Below are positions 49,565 through 62,400 of a DNA stretch of 64,000 nucleotides, piece after piece. Within the stretch, counting starts at the first letter, position 1. Each line of letters begins with the position of its first letter. The stretch lies in contig KE560971.1 in NCBI GenBank assembly GCA_000442015.1, forward strand, positions 1 to 64,000, given 5' to 3'. Made by a program: the position numbers and the translations under genes. The notes under the pieces are model-generated. The model did not search any database. It was not told where the DNA came from and saw only the letters and a list, made by a program, of their open reading frames with translations. This DNA comes from Rozella allomycis CSF55 (lineage: Eukaryota).

Positions 49565-52500
49565 TCAGTCTTCATCTTCAATTTTCTCATATTGTCCAGG
49601 ATCTTGGTACAGCGGATTTTCAAAACGTAATGTTCGGTCTTTATATAAAGGATTGTTAATAGCCACATCAGCCCACAAAGTAGCATCCAAGCTATTCTTA
49701 GTCTTGCGTCTATGACTAAATAGAATGCCAACTCCAACTGCAGCTCCAACAGCTCCAGCGATCGCAACTCCGGTTACAATGTTAGTCGTATTTGAAGTTA
49801 CTTCATTAGACGAATATTGAGAAACAGTTTGTTGTAATACTTCGTCTTGAGGACAGGTTGAATAGTTGGTCTGATTTTTACACAAAATGTTTCTGTTTTT
49901 GTTGTCATGGCATGACTTAGTTTCATTACACCAAAAGCAAGAATTTATATTCTCCAAGCATGTAGAACAAGTGGTACGGAAATTACAAATTGCTTCTTGT
50001 CTGCAAGTAGATCCATCTCCATCACAAACTCCACATTCATCCAAAATCGCACCAGAGTATGGTTTTCCATCGCATCCCGCACATGTTGAATTATCGCCCC
50101 CACATACTTGGCATGCGTCAAATGCTTTTCCAGACGCTGGAATACCGTCGCAACCAATACATGTAGAGCCATCGCCGTTGCATATTCCACATGGATCCAT
50201 TACACACACCACTGAGCAATCTAAACCAATATAACCTTCCTGGCATGTACAAGTGCCATTATTAGAGCAAACACCTTTGTTGTTGCATTCGTATCCGTTG
50301 TAGCGCGGACATTCCTTAAGTGAACAGTCAACACCTTTGTATCCATTTTCACATGCACATTGATCGCATATACAGGTACCATGACCACTGCATCCATTTT
50401 TCGTTGTNCATGACCACTACATCCATTTTTCGTTGTACAATTCGATTTAGAACATCCACAGTCCACTCCACCCCAACCTTCAACACAACGACATTGTCCA
50501 CATTCACATACTCCGTGGTTCAAACAATTTCCAGGACATTCAGCGGTAGAGCAATTACAGGTGCCATTGATTTTGGTATACCCTGATTGACAAGAACAGG
50601 TACCAGTGTCAGTGTCNTGTCGCAAGAGCCAAAACCGCATGTAGTATTACAGTATTTCTCTAAAATTATTTATGTGATAGTTGCATACTTTCACAAAGAT
50701 TGCCAAAATAACCCATAGGGCATGTACAAGTACCGTTACAATTGCATATTCCGCCGTTTAAGCAACCCAACGGGCATGACTTGCAGTCGCAGGAATTTCC
50801 GTAATATCCAGGTTTGCAAATACAGTTTCCTTGACAATCACAGCCAAGTGAACCGTCCGAATTACATAAACCAGTGCAATTTCGGCAATTGCAAGTGTCG
50901 CCATAGAAAGAAGCATTGCATACACACTGCCCTAATGTATAATCACAATAGCCGTTTTCACAACCCTTGGAACAATTTTTATCTATCATTACAAAAACAA
51001 TCCGTTACATTGACATGAATCACCAAAAACATTTTCAATACATTTACATGTTCCATTTTGACAATTATTGAAACCTGTGGAGTTCGTACAAGATTCAGAA
51101 CATAGTTTTATATCACAATTTCCTCCGGACCAACCATTGTCACACGTACAGGTCCCGTCACAATTGCATGTTCCATGACCAGAACAGTTTGATTCGCATG
51201 TCTTGCCTACCTCAAAAATTCAGGGTTTAAATTACACTCACAATTTGTTCCGATATATCCAGTTTTACAGATACAAGTTCCATTGCAAGAACATTGAGAA
51301 ACATTGGTACTATTTAAGCATTGTGAACTGCAGGATGTACATTCACACAATGACCCTGTTTTGCCCACTGGACACGTACAACTTCCGTCACAATTTGAGG
51401 ATCCACCATTTTGTATACAAGTGGTAGGTGCAGCTCTACAATCACAGGTATGATTAGGCCTAGAACGATCACAAACACATTCACCATTATTGTTACAGAC
51501 TTCGGTAGATAAGCACGTCGTATTACACGTTTTCCATTCGCAAGTTGGGCCTCTATATCCTGGAAGGCAGTCACAAAGACCAGTTGTACANGTATCCAGT
51601 TTTACAAATACAAGTTCCATTACAAGAACACTGAGAGACATTGGTACTATTCAAACATTGTGAACTGCAGGATGTACATTCGCACAATGACCCTGTTTTG
51701 CCCACTGGACACGTACAACTTCCGTCACAATTTGAGGATCCACCATTTTGTATACAAGTGGTAGGTGCAGCTCTACAATCACAGGTATGATTAGGCCTAG
51801 AACGATCACAAACACATTCACCATTATTGTTACAGACTTCGGTAGATAAGCACGTCGTATTACACGTTTTCCATTCGCAAGTTGGGCCTCTATATCCTGG
51901 AAGGCAGTCACAAAGACCAGTTGTACAATTTGACACACCATGAATACATGTTGGGGACACTTTACAAGAGCAATCAGCACCTGTCCAACCGTTTGCGCAA
52001 GTACACGATCCATCACAATTACAGGCACCTCTGTTGGTGCAATTGTTGTAACATTCTGTCTTACAATCGCAATTCACCCCTTTCCAGCCATTTTGACATA
52101 TACAATCACCAGTTGTGCAGTTATAGTTTTGAACATTTATGCATCCAATCTTTCTCACAGCACATTTACAATCAGGTTTCAGATATCCGTCATTGCAAGA
52201 ACAAGTACCATCACATAAACAAGTTCCCCTATTCGAGCAATTCTCTGGGCAGCTTTCTTTGCAATCACACAAGTCTCCTTTCCATCCCGGGAGACAAATC
52301 CACTTTCCAGTTGAACAATTGTAAGCACCATTACTATTAACGGCATTTCCCTGTGGAAGTTTGCAACTACAGTCTGGTCCACTTCTATCGGGAGGACAGC
52401 TACAAGATCCATCACAGTTACATGTACCAACACCGGAGCAATTGTTTGGACATCTTTTACAGTTACAATTAACACCTGTAAAACCTGAATTGCAAGTACA

Positions 52501-54349: not shown

Positions 54350-54425
54350 TTGGAAAATGTAAACAAACAAAACAGCCTTTAATGCTATTTTATGAAAATA
54401 AAACATTATTTTATTTCGTCTGTTT

Positions 54426-56167
54426 TTACTTTCCTTTAAGCGATTTCATCAAATATTTTCCTTTGGCTACTTTTTCTTGACTCTTCATGGCATTTTTATA
54501 TTCAGCAATTGGGTTCCGACCTTTGATCTTAGCTTGGACAACATTCTGATTAAAGTAGTTTTCATCGAATTCGTTTAAAGATTTTGCTCGTTTTTCATAC
54601 TTTTTATTTTCCAAGTTTTCTGATTTTTTGGGAGGGTTCTGTTCCAACCATAATTTGTAGCTTTTTTCATTGAATAGTTTTCCATCAATTCCAGGTGGTG
54701 CATGGCAGTAAATAAGTTTTCCGTTGACATAGTCTTTTAAGATCACTCTAGCAGCACGTGATTCATCAGGGTTGCCTTGTACGGAGCGAACGTAACCTCT
54801 CAATATTGCATACGTTTGGAGGAGTTCATAAACAGTCGGGGGCCTATTTGGATCTTCATGATCTGCAGGAAGGGGAATTTTCATGCCATAGACTCGCTCC
54901 AAAACTGATCTGGGAATCCTTTCAGCCACTAACGTAGAAGGTCCTAATGAATCTCGAAGCTGATCAACAGGCAAAATGCCGTTGACAACCAGTTCAGCTT
55001 TTGTAGTAGCAAATGATGGTAGAACAAGACCAGGACAATCCAAAAGGCAGAGTTCAGAATCCAAAATGATGGTTTGAAAATGTTTCGTTTTCCCTGGAGT
55101 AGCAGCGACACCAACTTTCTTTTCACCTGCCATTGCGTTGATTGTGGATGATTTCCCGACATTAGGGTACCCGATCAAACCAACAGTTTTTTGCTCTGAA
55201 TCTTTTCTTAATGAAACCTAAATCTTACTATTCGAAATCTGCTGGGAAAAATTCTTAAAGAATTCAGTCAATTCAAATGCATCCAAAATTTTTGTCTTAT
55301 CGTTGGCAACTTCTTCTGAAACGCAATCAGCATTTTCTAATTTTTCCGCTGCCAAAGTAGCTGAAAAGAACACAAAATCTAATTTTTCTGCTTCAAAATA
55401 TTCAACCCAGGCCGCTCTTTGTTCTTTGCTAAGAAGATCGGATTTATTTAGCACTAATAAATTTTTCTTATCTTCACCGACTTCCTTTACGTATCTCTCT
55501 AAATCTGGTGATCTGAAAAGAAGGGGATTTCTAGCGTCCACAATTTGAACCAATACATCACTATCCTTGTTTCAGAATAAAATTACCTTCTTTCAATAAC
55601 TCTCCACAATTGTCTCCAAAAATCGAGATTCTTTTCAAATGGAGTCATGAGATAATCTTCTTCCAATCTATTATGTGGCCATGATATATAATACTTTGCA
55701 AGGTTTCTTCTCCACTCTAAAAAGGACTGACTCTCAAGTTGATGCAATTCTTTAGCAGACATACTTCTATTCCATTTTGGTCAATAATAAAACGAAAAAT
55801 AAACTCTTACCGTCTTGGCACAGTGGCCAAGAGCTTGTTATTTTCAATCTTTTCTAAAAGCTCTCGCTCTTTTTCTTGCGAAATAGAAGTAGAATTTGCA
55901 ACTTGTTGAATAATGACTTGGATGTTTTGTTTCTCAGCTACAAAATCTTTTTCGGCAGCTTCTGCTTCATACAGAAATTCTTCGAGATTAGTCTGCTCGG
56001 TTATAGATTTCAGAGCCGGTTTCTTTTCTTGTTGCGTTGAATGCTAAATGTCATAAAAATAACTGAAATACGATTAATGTATTGACATCCTGAACAGTTT
56101 TAACAGTCTTAAATCTTGATCTAAGCAAACTCTTTCCAAGCTGCTGTTTTGAATTTTTTCTAGACAT
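54426..56167 (-). CDS. LSG1: Large subunit GTPase 1
   Basis: FLEWRRNLA, TPFEKNLDFWRQLWRVIERSD, GYPNVGKSSTIN, TPGKTKHFQT, DCPGL. Confidence 0.95.
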
Positions 56168-58093: not shown

Positions 58094-59010
58094 ATGGTTT
58101 TTGTAAATCTACATCCGCTGCCTGTTATTAACATATCCGACCATCTTACCAGACACAAAATTAACCAAAACTTGAATGGGTAACAACCTTGATGTAATTA
58201 GAATAGTATCGTGGGAGGTGCTCTCCTTGGCGTAAAGGATAATTCTACCATCCATATTAAAAATTCTTTCGAATTAGTTTTCAACAATAACTCATTTGAT
58301 CAAAATTTCAAAGAAAGAAAATGCGTTCAGTGTAAGGATCATTTTTTACACTTTGTAGACAAAGAAGTTTTCCCCGATTTGGAACTAATCGGTTACTACT
58401 TTTCAAATAAAAATGATGCTATCACCAATGAAGACGACAAAGTAAAGAATCATTTATTCATTATTTGATCATCATGATTATTGATTACACCAATTCCAAA
58501 TTCCAATTTTACGACAATGAATCGCCAATTGAGTATCGAATTGAAGGATCACCAGAAGAAAACATAGTACTAGAACAATTGAAGATATCTGATCAAAGCG
58601 AGGAATCTACTAGTACATAATTTACTGCGACATTCAAAGGTGCCGAATTCTTCGAAAAGATGAAAAACTCTCTAGGTGAAATGAACAAACAATTAATAAG
58701 AATTAGAAATAAGGTTATAATGATGATTGAAGGTACAATTCACGTTGAACTTTGTTAGGCAAAATACCTTTCGATTCACAATTTTTGAGGGCTGCAGCAG
58801 CGATAGCAAAGAATCGATTAAATGTTGATATTAGCGAATACAGTGAAAAGTCGTCATATGTTCAAAAGATGTCCGTCTTGACAAAAAGATTGTGTGCACT
58901 TGAGAATGTAACACTAAGCGAATGTATTAAAAAAGGAAATTAAAATGCGCTCAATTATTGAAGGCAACAATTTAACCGCTTCCGAAGAATCAGTAATTGA
59001 AAATAAATAG
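58094..59010 (+). CDS. CSN6: COP9 signalosome subunit 6 (MPN-), divergent
   Basis: LHPLPVINISDHLTR, GALLG..IKNSFEL, YKEVFPDLELIGYY. Confidence 0.75.
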
Positions 59011-59441: not shown

Positions 59442-62400
59442 TTATTTTATTAACTGACCTTGACTTCCATTTTCCATTATACTTCGAGGTCCATTTTCAA
59501 TGCCTATTTCATCCAATGCAGTTCTAAATTTTACTTGATAATTTCTCTCGACTCGCTAACTTTTGTTTGCTACCATGTCTATTTTCATTAAAGTCTTGAA
59601 AATTGTATTCATCATTTGCTCTTGGAAGGAAGGCAGCCAGCAATTGAGTTGTGGGTTCTGCTTCGGGAATCCATTGATAATCTATTTTATAATTTGGTTT
59701 AACCTGTTTTAGTTGTCTTTCTATTGACGCTGCCATTTTTTCCGCTCTAGAAACCCTTATGGTCATAACCTTTAGAGATTTTTCGGCTTTATCAACCTCG
59801 ACTTCTTTCTTGGATAATTTTTGATTAACTTCGTTAAAATTTTTTTCGGTTAGTTTTAATTTATCTGTTAGCTCCTTAATGTGATGCCTAAAGACCTATT
59901 CGAGTGACTTATTAATGTTACTTGATTTTCATTGAGCAAATGATCTTTTTCTGCGATAAGTGTCTTATATTTATATTCCAATGATTGATAATCAAGTAAT
60001 CCCAGATTCAACGACTCGGATTCGATATTTGGAAATGTTTTTAATTACCTGGTAAATTTATCAAGGATGGATTAGAATGTTTTAGTGCCTTTCTATTGAT
60101 CAAGGATAAATTTATTTTCTCAAAGTCTGAATGGATTGTAGATTGTTTGTCTTGAAGAGCCGATATCCTTAGCTTTAGTTGATTATTTTCTATTTGAAGG
60201 TCATGTACTTGAGCTTTAGCTTTTAACATGATTTCTTTTGAGAGACGAAGCTTTTTTTCCATGCAATTCAAGTCTTTTTCCGATGTGTCGTTTTTATGAG
60301 TTTTAGATAGTCTTTTAATTTCAGCCTTAAGCATATTAACACTTGTCTATCAATAAATTAATAATTTAGCTACTATCATGTCAATTTGAAGTTTTTTCTT
60401 TTCTGCATCAGCCTCGATTAAGGATTTTTCCAATTCAATCTTTTAATAAATTAATTAACAAAAATACATTTTTATTTTGATATTCTTTCAATTTTGGTTC
60501 CATTCTTTAAAAATTCTTCATTTATTAAATTTTACCTTTTAATTTCTAATAAAAGTTGATTGATTTCATAATCTTTATTGTCGTTGGCCTTTTCAATTTC
60601 TTTTTGCTTAACTTTTGATTGCTCTTTAATTGTTGAATTTATGTTTAATTTTAGCTCTTAAACGGCAGCATGAAATTTACTTGAAGTTCAAAATTTTCAA
60701 CCTTCAATTTTTCAATTAATTTCTCGTTCTTGATTGAATTGTTTTGAGACTCGAGCCACATTTTTTTCAGTTTATCGTATTCTTCTTTTGCACGGTTAGA
60801 TTCCTTTTGCATTTTATCAAGTTCTACATTGAAAAGGTGCTTTATGTGATCCACATTAACACTGGATAGTTTGTCTTTTAATTTGTCAATTTCGTGATCC
60901 TTGAAATCTAATTGATGTGAAAGTTTTATTGTTTGTTCGTAAAGACTACTAAAATGATTATCCATGTCCTTGTATTGTCTACTCAATCTCTCATTTTCGC
61001 TCTCCAAATGAATCTATATCGAGATTAATCTATTTATACAATCTTATCTTTAAGTATCATCACTTCCTTGTTTGATAATATCATTTTCTCTGTAGCTTTA
61101 TTACAATTATCTCTTTCATTCAAAATCAACCTTTTATATACTTCCATTTGTATTACTTTTTCATTCTATTTACAATTTCTTTTTCAACTTCTTCTGCTGA
61201 TGAGTTAATAGCCTCATATCACTAAATATTTCTGATTACTTTTTGAATTTCATTGGCTCTGCTAAACTTGTATGTTGAATGGATTTGTTGAATAGAATCT
61301 TTTAATTCATCAATCGTGACTTGGCGTTGACCAATTTCACCTTCTTTTTTCCTGTCTCTTGTTTGATACTTTTCCAATTCCTTCATGATAACATTTTCAT
61401 TCTTAATTGATATTTCCTTTTCCTTTTCTAGAGTGTCATTTTGTTTCTTGATTTGAATTAATTCACTGTTTAATTCATTTATGTCTTTTTTCAATGTTTC
61501 ATTTTCCTCTTCAATTTGTTTATTTCTAAAATTTAAATCAACATTTTCCTGTTTATAATTTTGAATTTCAATTCTATTTTCGTTGATTTCAGATCTTTGA
61601 ATTTCCTTTTTAGATTTTACTTTTGTGTATTTAATGATTCCTTTAACTTGTTTACAGTGACGTCCCTGTTTCTCATTGCGAGTAATCCTTCCTCCCATTG
61701 CTTTACAACGCTATCATTCAATTTTTGCAATTGCTTTATTTCTATTTCAATATTGATTCAATTAGAAACCTTATCGTATTATAGTATACAATAAAAATAC
61801 CTTGAGTCAAATTGTCAACTACTACTTGCGCGGCTCTGGTTTCACCGATTTGAGCAGATTGCAAATTTAAAGCCTTTCTCTTTTGTTCCAAAATCTCATC
61901 ATTCGACAAAATCCACTTTACTCTTTCAAGTTTAATCTGAAGACTTTTCATTTCATTTTGCATCAACTTCTTCTGTTCTTCTATTTTATCTAAATCAAAT
62001 TTCATTTTCTCTTCAACACGTCTTTGCAATTTAATATCATATGAATATGCAATACTAAGATCCATCAAATCTTTATTTTTTCGCTGAAGAGTTTGCCATT
62101 CAGCCCGTTTCACAATTAATTCAGCAGCTAATTCCTAGAAATCTTGAATCACAGCATTACTTGATTGGTTTGATCAGCTACTTGTAATTCTTTCTCCAAA
62201 TCTTTAGAGTACTGCTTTGATGTTAACGAGTCTTGTGCTTCATGTTGCCACTTTTCTTTTCTGTCATAAAATACAAAGTCGATTTACAATTCGAAAAACG
62301 CATTTTGCATTGATTCTAGTTGCGACTTTGTCTTGTATAATGCAATTCCTAGTTCCTTTTTGTCATTCGCAACCAAATTCAAATCATGATCCTTATCGTC

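What the first reader, a model, noticed from the sequence alone, without database searches (positions are those of the whole stretch)
55782..55810. GT-TG intron inside an invariant motif of the essential gene LSG1
Seen: minus strand CCA AGA CG|gtaagagtttatttttcgttttattattg|A CCA AAA TGG. The 29-nt insert has a strong donor but no usable AG, and ending at TG restores VPRRPKW. Known: PRRPxW is conserved in Lsg1 proteins, and TG acceptors are very rare. Inference: the 3' site is chosen by distance plus a terminal G rather than by AG.
Basis: partly seen in the sequence, partly recalled or inferred. Interest (0 to 1): 0.85.

Follow-up and report, generated by a model that had tools for sequence, protein, structure and literature searches.

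The report
Probable TG-ended intron in Rozella LSG1
In the ribosome-export GTPase gene LSG1 of the fungal parasite Rozella allomycis, a 29-base intron ends in TG instead of AG at the spot where relatives have an AG, so the cell must either splice at TG or lose a near-universal five-residue motif, and no RNA data were available to decide.

Summary
On the minus strand, 55810..55782 is 29 nt, starts GTAAGA and ends ATTG. Its only AGs lie inside the donor.

Removing exactly these 29 nt joins two ORFs that align to human LSG1 residues 50-116 and 117-173 with nothing lost. It gives RRPKW plus 16 residues plus FLEWRR. That spacing occurs in 107 of the 108 homologues that carry the anchor; the exception is the public Rozella model.

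The organism is Rozella allomycis CSF55. Both public gene models use an in-frame AG 15 nt further on, a 44-nt intron that deletes PKWNR. A family HMM prefers the TG junction by 26 bits.

Other eukaryotes have an intron at the same position and phase, each ending in AG. Window introns are 24-31 nt and end ATAG, so this one is that consensus with T at -2.

No RNA run was found. DNA contigs from three studies cover the site with no listed difference, but that list was truncated.

Best reading (about 0.5): a real intron spliced at TG, probably as a TG-AG tandem as known in humans. The main rival (0.3) is use of the downstream AG only.

The parts
56072..56167 (-). LSG1 exon 1 (ATG at 56167-56165)
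   Evidence: The public model P0243 begins with the same residues and joins NTLI to HSTQQ.
56044..56071 (-). Intron 1, 28 nt, GTATTT..TTTAG, canonical
   Evidence: same junction in P0243.
55811..56043 (-). LSG1 exon 2, ending ..VPR + CG of the second Arg codon
   Evidence: Aligns to human LSG1 residues 50-116.
55782..55810 (-). Intron 2, the finding: 29 nt, donor GTAAGA, 3' end ATTG (T at 55783), phase 2
   Evidence: No RNA evidence.
55767..55781 (-). 15 nt coding P-K-W-N-R under the TG junction. Intronic under the public 44-nt GT..AG model, which ends AATAG at 55767. A further AG ends at 55764 (47-nt option).
55695..55766 (-). Rest of exon 3 (SMSAKELHQLESQSFLEWRRNLA..)
55668..55694 (-). Intron 3, 27 nt, GTATTA..AATAG, in frame and without a stop. 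Kept as coding (YYISWPHNR) in both public models.
   Evidence: Human and yeast alignments show a 7- and a 6-residue gap here. The HMM gains 10 bits on removal. L045 has an intron at the same position.
55587..55667 (-). LSG1 exon 4
55561..55586 (-). Intron 4, 26 nt, GTAATT..GATAG, canonical
   Evidence: junction IERSD in P0121.
55229..55560 (-). LSG1 exon 5
55202..55228 (-). Intron 5, 27 nt, GTAAGA..AAAAG. Skips AGs at 11 and 22 nt.
   Evidence: junction ISNNSEQ in P0121.
54426..55201 (-). LSG1 exon 6 with the GTPase domain and the stop codon
   Evidence: Pfam MMR_HSR1, E 2e-15. 2124 homologues. The relative P0001 ends at the same point.

Best explanation
55810..55782 is a genuine U2-type ultra-short intron of Rozella allomycis LSG1, at an old, conserved intron position. 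Its acceptor reads ATTG where the local consensus is ATAG.

A functionally sufficient share of transcripts is ligated at the TG, giving the conserved ..VPRR-PKWN.. protein. The in-frame AATAG 15 nt downstream most likely acts as the partner AG of a TG-AG tandem. It would help define the 3' end and may also be used, giving a minor or major isoform that lacks PKWNR.

Shown:
- the sequence;
- the exact protein abutment;
- family-wide conservation of the motif and its spacing;
- the conserved intron position;
- the normal length and flanking bases of the intron.

Inferred:
- that TG is actually used;
- the tandem mechanism.
For: 1. Only the 29-nt excision joins the two ORFs without loss against human LSG1, residues 116 and 117.
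2. PxW lies 16 residues before FLEWRR in 107 of 108 anchored homologues. The sole exception is the public Rozella model.
3. An HMM built from 94 homologues of 480 aa or more scores the TG model at 650.5 bits, the AG44 model at 624.5 and the AG47 model at 622.1.
4. The intron position and phase are shared. L045 reads CGA AG, then GT..CAG, then A CCC GAC TGG. The script flagged 7 of 35 metagenome loci. One of these (L029) looks continuous. By eye L004 (in-frame stop upstream) and probably L007 add to the rest. Every one has an AG 1 nt before the Pro codon.
5. The length of 29 nt is typical. The 46 core introns span 24-31 nt with a mode of 26-27. The 3' consensus is A at -4 (30 of 46) and T at -3 (29 of 46) before AG, so ATTG differs from it at -2 only.
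6. No convincing intron longer than 34 nt was seen. 54 ORF junctions have a 22-31 nt GT..AG solution. The 21 with only other lengths look spurious by eye. A 44-nt intron would therefore be an outlier.
7. The T is probably real. Contigs X2 55463-56034, X3 55577-56034 and X5 55637-56095 span it, and no difference at 55783 is listed. Two public assemblies gave models that avoid this site.
8. A TG with a downstream AG 28 nt away at most, T at -3 and a purine at +1 matches the described human TG-AG tandems (PMC2374985, abstract and section 12).
Against: - There is no RNA evidence at all.
- TG acceptors are about 0.02% of human introns and were never the sole site. Human AG-to-TG mutants used a neighbouring AG, not the TG (PMC2374985, sections 12 and 13).
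- The window's own rule, first AG at 25 nt or more, predicts the AG at 44 nt.
- That AG sits in AATAG, the commonest acceptor context here.
- Both public annotations use it. They are clearly ab initio at this locus, though, because they also keep intron 3 as coding.
- Intact PKWNR codons would also be expected for some time after a recent acceptor mutation.
- The list of base differences shows 40 of 194 rows, so identity at 55783 in the reads is likely but not proven.
Confidence: 0.5

Rival explanations
1. The acceptor was hit by an A-to-T change. The spliceosome now uses only the next AG (AATAG, 44 nt, or AAG, 47 nt). Rozella LSG1 then lacks PKWNR (or PKWNRS), which is tolerated or mildly harmful. 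This is what both public gene models assume.
For: - Both AGs are in frame.
- 'First AG at 25 nt or more' fits 44 of 46 core introns and points to 44 nt.
- AATAG is a frequent acceptor context.
- Human AG-to-TG mutants behave this way (PMC2374985, section 12).
- Public models P0121 and P0243 read VPRR-SMSAKEL.
Against: - It deletes a motif present in 107 of 108 anchored homologues of a gene that is essential in yeast (essentiality is recalled, not from a call).
- It costs 26 bits against the family HMM.
- A 44-nt intron would be outside every length seen with confidence in the window.
- The 15 skipped bases still encode the consensus RRPxWN variant perfectly, in the right frame.
- The public models are unreliable here. 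They keep the in-frame intron 3, and P0243 has an odd C-terminal extension.
Confidence: 0.3
2. The T at 55783 is an assembly error or one allele of a polymorphism. The functional allele has ATAG and the intron is ordinary.
For: - A single base separates ATTG from the consensus ATAG.
- The sample is heterozygous or mixed at other sites, for example partial depths at 54837 and 54846.
- Table 3 is truncated.
- The X1 contig listed nearest the site ends at 55763.
Against: - Contigs from X2, X3 and X5 (two further studies) run through the site, and no difference at 55783 is among the best-supported rows. Differences seen in one run only at similar depth were listed.
- Models from two separate public assemblies both avoid a 29-nt AG solution.
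Confidence: 0.07
3. This LSG1 copy is decaying, a young pseudogene or dispensable paralogue, and a second intact copy elsewhere does the work.
For: - Two other junction anomalies lie within 4.3 kb: the CSN6-like frame break at 58442-58467 and a CG-ended junction at 60048..60023.
- These could mean relaxed selection in this obligate parasite.
Against: - All other exons are open and highly conserved. The model scores 650 bits, and the GTPase exon is 45-66% identical to homologues.
- The other four introns are canonical.
- Only one Rozella LSG1 cluster appeared in two protein searches.
- The whole genome could not be searched.
Confidence: 0.05

Closest known systems
TG-AG tandem 3' splice sites of U2-type introns (Szafranski et al. 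2007, Genome Biol 8:R154, PMC2374985; abstract and sections 9, 12 and 13 read)
   Same: GT donor. TG at the 3' end with a pyrimidine at -3 and a purine at +1. A canonical AG close by, here 15 and 18 nt away, within the 28-nt limit reported. Both products are in frame.
   Different: Those cases are in human (36 genes), with single examples in Drosophila, and were verified by RT-PCR. The introns are of normal length, and TG was never the sole site. Here the host is an early-diverging fungus with 24-31 nt introns. The TG product is the one that keeps an essential conserved motif. Nothing is verified at RNA level.
Ultra-short spliceosomal introns (ciliates, microsporidia, dicyemids, myxobolid myxozoans; Hadjez et al. 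2026, PMC13644364, main text read; Zverkov 2019 PMC6543705 and Lu 2019 PMC6736024, passages read)
   Same: A narrow length class near 26-27 nt. The donor is reduced to GTA. There is little or no polypyrimidine tract. A residues sit just upstream of the AG.
   Different: Those papers report AG acceptors and, in the text I read, do not list Rozella among lineages with introns under 30 nt. No non-AG class is described there. Their supplements were not seen.
Ordinary GT-AG intron at the same LSG1 position in other eukaryotes (L045, L004, and the L010/L011/L013/L015/L016 group)
   Same: Same position and phase: after the second base of the second Arg codon of PRR, one base before the Pro codon of PxW.
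   Different: All of these end in AG. The intron in L045 is about 90 nt long.

Membership tests
Rozella-type ultra-short U2 intron | GTA donor directly after an open exon, with a stop on retention | tested here: met
   GTAAGA at 55810. Read-through gives CGG TAA.
Rozella-type ultra-short U2 intron | Length within the local class (24-31 nt) | tested here: met
   29 nt. The core set of 46 has 6 introns of 29 nt.
Rozella-type ultra-short U2 intron | 3' end A(-4) T(-3) A(-2) G(-1) | tested here: not met
   The end is ATTG. A at -4, T at -3 and G at -1 are kept, with T in place of A at -2.
Rozella-type ultra-short U2 intron | Removal restores the conserved protein | tested here: met
Rozella-type ultra-short U2 intron | Removed from mRNA | not testable with these tools
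   No RNA holder was listed. All runs laid were DNA contigs without intron joints.
TG-AG tandem acceptor | A canonical AG acceptor within 28 nt of the TG | tested here: met
   AG at +15 (AATAG) and +18 nt, both in frame.
TG-AG tandem acceptor | Pyrimidine at -3 and purine at +1 of the TG site | tested here: met
   T at -3, A at +1. Criterion from PMC2374985, section 12.
TG-AG tandem acceptor | TG-derived and AG-derived transcripts both observed | not testable with these tools
   No RNA data.
LSG1 (large-subunit GTPase 1) | MMR_HSR1-type GTPase domain and full-length similarity to solved LSG1 | tested here: met
   Pfam PF01926, E 2e-15. PDB 6lsr_1 and 6n8n_W. 650 bits against the family HMM.
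LSG1 (large-subunit GTPase 1) | RRPxW motif 16 residues before FLEWRR | tested here: met
   Met only with the TG junction. Absent with the AG44 or AG47 junctions.

The most novel reading that the evidence does not exclude
Rozella's spliceosome sets the 3' splice site mainly by distance (about 25-31 nt from the 5' site) together with an A-T-N-G context. The -2 base is then not strictly required, and TG and CG acceptors work constitutively. The LSG1 intron (ATTG, 29 nt) and the coiled-coil gene intron at 60048..60023 (ATCG, 26 nt, no in-frame AG at all) would be two examples in one 64-kb window. They would be the first constitutive non-AG acceptors of U2-type introns.
Probability: 0.15. Interest if true: 0.8.

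Novelty: new member of a known kind. Interest (0 to 1): 0.5.

Why it matters
If TG is used, an essential ribosome-biogenesis gene depends on a non-AG acceptor in an organism whose introns are near the physical minimum. That would make Rozella a natural system for asking how the second catalytic step picks its 3' site when there is almost no room between branch point and acceptor. It would also show that TG-AG tandems are not confined to animals.

The practical result holds either way. Both public Rozella LSG1 models delete a near-universal motif and keep a 27-nt intron as coding. Annotation restricted to GT-AG in this ultra-short-intron genome is therefore unreliable, and Rozella proteins used in phylogenomics may carry such errors.

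Tried and rejected
- **RNA evidence.** The look-up of sequencing runs listed no RNA holder. The four runs laid were DNA contigs with no intron joints. This says nothing about expression.
- **Whole genome.** None is held. U2AF1, Prp8, paralogues and genome-wide intron statistics could not be checked.
- **First guess of the organism.** Teneurin-type EGF, GAS8 and CEP76 hits plus 27-nt introns led me to think of a dicyemid or myxozoan, and I read that literature. A 100% identical named protein from Rozella allomycis overturned this.
- **Literature on Rozella introns and non-AG sites.** Searches, and passages, found nothing on ultra-short or non-canonical Rozella introns. James et al. 2013 is not held, so I cannot say it is unreported.
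- **Close relatives with the same intron.** The metagenome scan gave 80 loci, the best 58% identical (77% for one segment of L045). None is a near relative of Rozella.
- **Second TG intron in the CSN6-like gene (58442..58467).** The PDB alignment to Drosophila CSN6 and two remote homologues suggest that the 'intron' codons (KVKNH..) are coding. A frame break is then more likely than an intron. The Pfam coordinates did not decide. The representative search gave only 2 hits and the last protein search none.
- **Coiled-coil gene.** No family was found, so that junction cannot be checked by homology.
- **Other excisions for LSG1.** A GG..TT cut shifted by one base gives the same mRNA. A TA..GA cut also gives Arg but has no donor. 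26- and 32-nt cuts give a stop or lose the Pro.
- **ORF-pair screens.** These are noisy because of antisense and out-of-frame ORFs. Only three junctions stood out.

Full report
**The sequence**

Exon 2 of the gene ends CCA AGA CG at 55811. A 29-nt insert follows (55810..55782), beginning GTAAGA and ending ATTG, with the T at 55783. Then comes A CCA AAA TGG.

After the donor G, AG occurs only at intron positions 5 and 7, which are inside the donor. The next AGs are at 44, 47 and 61 nt. If the insert is retained, the frame stops at once (CGG TAA).

**The gene and the organism**

- The large downstream ORF carries an MMR_HSR1 GTPase domain and has more than 2000 LSG1 homologues.
- A search with the exon that follows the insert returned a 100% identical named protein of Rozella allomycis CSF55, P0121. 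Its cluster mate is the full-length public model P0243.
- My earlier guess of a dicyemid or myxozoan was wrong. It rested on animal-looking Pfam hits and on 27-nt introns.
- The gene has six exons and five introns of 28, 29, 27, 26 and 27 nt. The upstream neighbour is SRP72.

**Is the junction at TG required?**

- Against human LSG1 (6lsr_1), the ORF before the insert aligns to residues 50-116, ending IPRR. The ORF after it aligns from residue 117, PNWN. The two pieces abut with nothing lost or gained.
- Of the 120 homologues listed, 108 carry the anchor F[LIVM]xWRR. Of those, 99 have [RK][RK]PxW with the W exactly 16 residues before the anchor. Eight more have RPxW- or PxW-type variants at the same spacing. 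The single exception is the public Rozella model. The 12 without the anchor were not examined.
- With the TG junction the window gives RRPKW, then 16 residues, then FLEWRR.
- A profile HMM built from the 94 homologues of 480 aa or more gives these scores:

| Model | Bits |
|---|---|
| TG junction | 650.5 |
| AG at 44 nt | 624.5 |
| AG at 47 nt | 622.1 |

- Keeping the in-frame 27-nt intron 3 costs another 10 bits.

**The same intron elsewhere**

The metagenome scan gave no close relative of Rozella. It did show that the intron position is old.

- In L045 the exon ends CGA AG, a GT..CAG intron follows, and the next exon starts A CCC GAC TGG. L045 also shares the positions of Rozella introns 3 and 4.
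- Among the 35 loci whose match starts at the Pro codon, the script flagged 7 with an AG one base before that codon. One of them, L029, looks like continuous IPWR. By eye L004 (in-frame stop upstream) and probably L007 are further cases.
- These represent at least three unrelated sequences: L045, L004, and the L010/L011/L013/L015/L016 group.
- The place where Rozella has TG is therefore exactly where homologous introns have their AG.

**How normal is the insert as a Rozella intron?**

- I took GTA..AG introns flanked by 40 or more open codons on each side and not covered by a long antisense ORF. This core set has 46 members, with these lengths:

| Length (nt) | 24 | 25 | 26 | 27 | 28 | 29 | 30 | 31 |
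|---|---|---|---|---|---|---|---|---|
| Introns | 1 | 1 | 17 | 12 | 6 | 6 | 2 | 1 |

- The 24-31 window was part of the definition. As a check, 54 ORF junctions have a 22-31 nt solution. The 21 that have only other lengths look spurious by eye, with non-GTA donors or out-of-frame ORFs inside long genes.
- The 3' consensus is A at -4 (30 of 46) and T at -3 (29 of 46), followed by AG. The odd intron ends ATTG, so it is the consensus with one change at -2.
- 'First AG at 25 nt or more from the 5' site' picks the in-frame acceptor in 44 of 46 introns, and 36 nearer AGs are skipped. Distance clearly matters in this genome.
- That rule, however, points to the AG at 44 nt, not to the TG.

**Is the T real?**

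- No RNA run was listed.
- DNA contigs of four runs from three studies were laid. X2 (55463-56034), X3 (55577-56034) and X5 (55637-56095) run through the site.
- No difference at 55783 appears among the listed rows. A nearby difference at 55724 is listed, and so are differences seen in a single run.
- The table shows only 40 of 194 rows. I rate the T as very probably real, not as proven.
- Models from two separate public assemblies both avoid a 29-nt AG solution. This fits the T being present there too.

**What the public models do**

- P0121 and P0243 read VPRR-SMSAKEL. They use the AATAG 15 nt downstream, a 44-nt intron, and lose PKWNR.
- They also translate intron 3 as YYISWPHNR.
- P0243 adds a C-terminal tail through a 45-nt GT..AG. 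The relative P0001 ends where the window ORF ends.
- These models are not evidence of what the cell splices.

**What is known**

- Szafranski et al. 2007 (PMC2374985; abstract and sections 9, 12 and 13 read) verified TG acceptors in 36 human genes.
- They were always alternative to an AG no more than 28 nt away, with a pyrimidine at -3 and a purine at +1. Some were the preferred site.
- Human AG-to-TG mutants activated neighbouring AGs and did not splice at TG.
- The Rozella site fits the tandem description: AG at +15 and +18, T at -3, A at +1.
- Papers on ultra-short introns (PMC13644364, main text; PMC6543705, PMC6736024 and PMC2222250, passages) describe AG acceptors only. In what I read they do not mention Rozella.
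- My searches found nothing on non-AG or ultra-short introns in Rozella. James et al. 2013 is not held, and supplements were not seen.

**Verdict**

- Protein and intron-position evidence say that the functional mRNA should be joined at TG.
- Splicing precedent and the local distance rule say that the downstream AG is the easy choice.
- My odds are:

| Reading | Probability |
|---|---|
| TG used, probably with the AG as tandem partner | 0.5 |
| Downstream AG only | 0.3 |
| Base error or second allele | 0.07 |
| Decaying copy | 0.05 |
| Other | rest |

**Two further junction anomalies**

- A coiled-coil gene on the minus strand needs a 26-nt GTAATT..ATATCG excision at 60048..60023. It ends CG, again in the context A-T-N-G. 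The only nearby AG, at 34 nt, is out of frame. No family is available to check it.
- A CSN6-like gene has a frame break at 58442-58467. It could be a 26-nt GT..TG intron, but the skipped codons look coding. No indel is seen there in three runs (table 4).
- These cases keep alive the bolder reading that the -2 base is not strictly needed in this organism.

Noticed in passing
window 60023-60048, minus strand: A multi-exon coiled-coil gene (about 61013-59528) needs a 26-nt excision, GTAATT..ATATCG, that ends in CG. The next exon is bounded downstream by a canonical 26-nt intron. The only AG nearby (34 nt) is out of frame and would stop after 7 codons. This is a possible second non-AG acceptor in an A-T-N-G context. 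There is no homology to check it.
   Followed up: partly
window 58442-58467, plus strand: The CSN6-like MPN gene (about 58095-58943) has a frame break. Only a 26-nt GTAAAG..ATTTG excision or a -1 frame change joins the ORFs, and there is no AG for about 90 nt. The skipped codons (KVKNHLFII) resemble the helix that follows GWY in CSN6 relatives, so a real frameshift or pseudogene is more likely than an intron. No indel is seen there in the contigs of X1-X3.
   Followed up: partly
window 55668-55694, minus strand: LSG1 intron 3 is 27 nt, in frame and free of stops. Both public Rozella models translate it (YYISWPHNR). Alignments to human and yeast LSG1 and the family HMM (+10 bits) favour its removal, and L045 has an intron at the same position.
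   Followed up: yes
window 54385-54429, minus strand: Public model P0243 extends LSG1 past its stop through a 45-nt GT..AG into the next ORF. The 66%-identical relative P0001 ends where the window ORF ends, so the extension is probably an annotation artefact.
   Followed up: partly
whole window: Rozella allomycis introns in this window are ultra-short: 24-31 nt with a mode of 26-27, a GTA donor and an ATAG acceptor. 'First AG at 25 nt or more' fits 44 of 46. The 2026 review of introns under 30 nt that I read lists ciliates, microsporidia, dicyemids and myxozoans but not Rozella.
   Followed up: partly
window 51256-51927: A 337-bp unit repeated twice (97% match) lies inside a minus-strand gene with teneurin-type EGF domains. 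The window also has 13 isolated N bases (for example near 51590, 50408 and 37712), perhaps ambiguous calls at variable sites.
   Followed up: no
window 55724 and 54819-54849; 58-63.5 kb: Many single-base differences separate the window from the contigs of X1-X3, some at partial depth within one run. More than one haplotype or strain is therefore present in the sequenced material.
   Followed up: no
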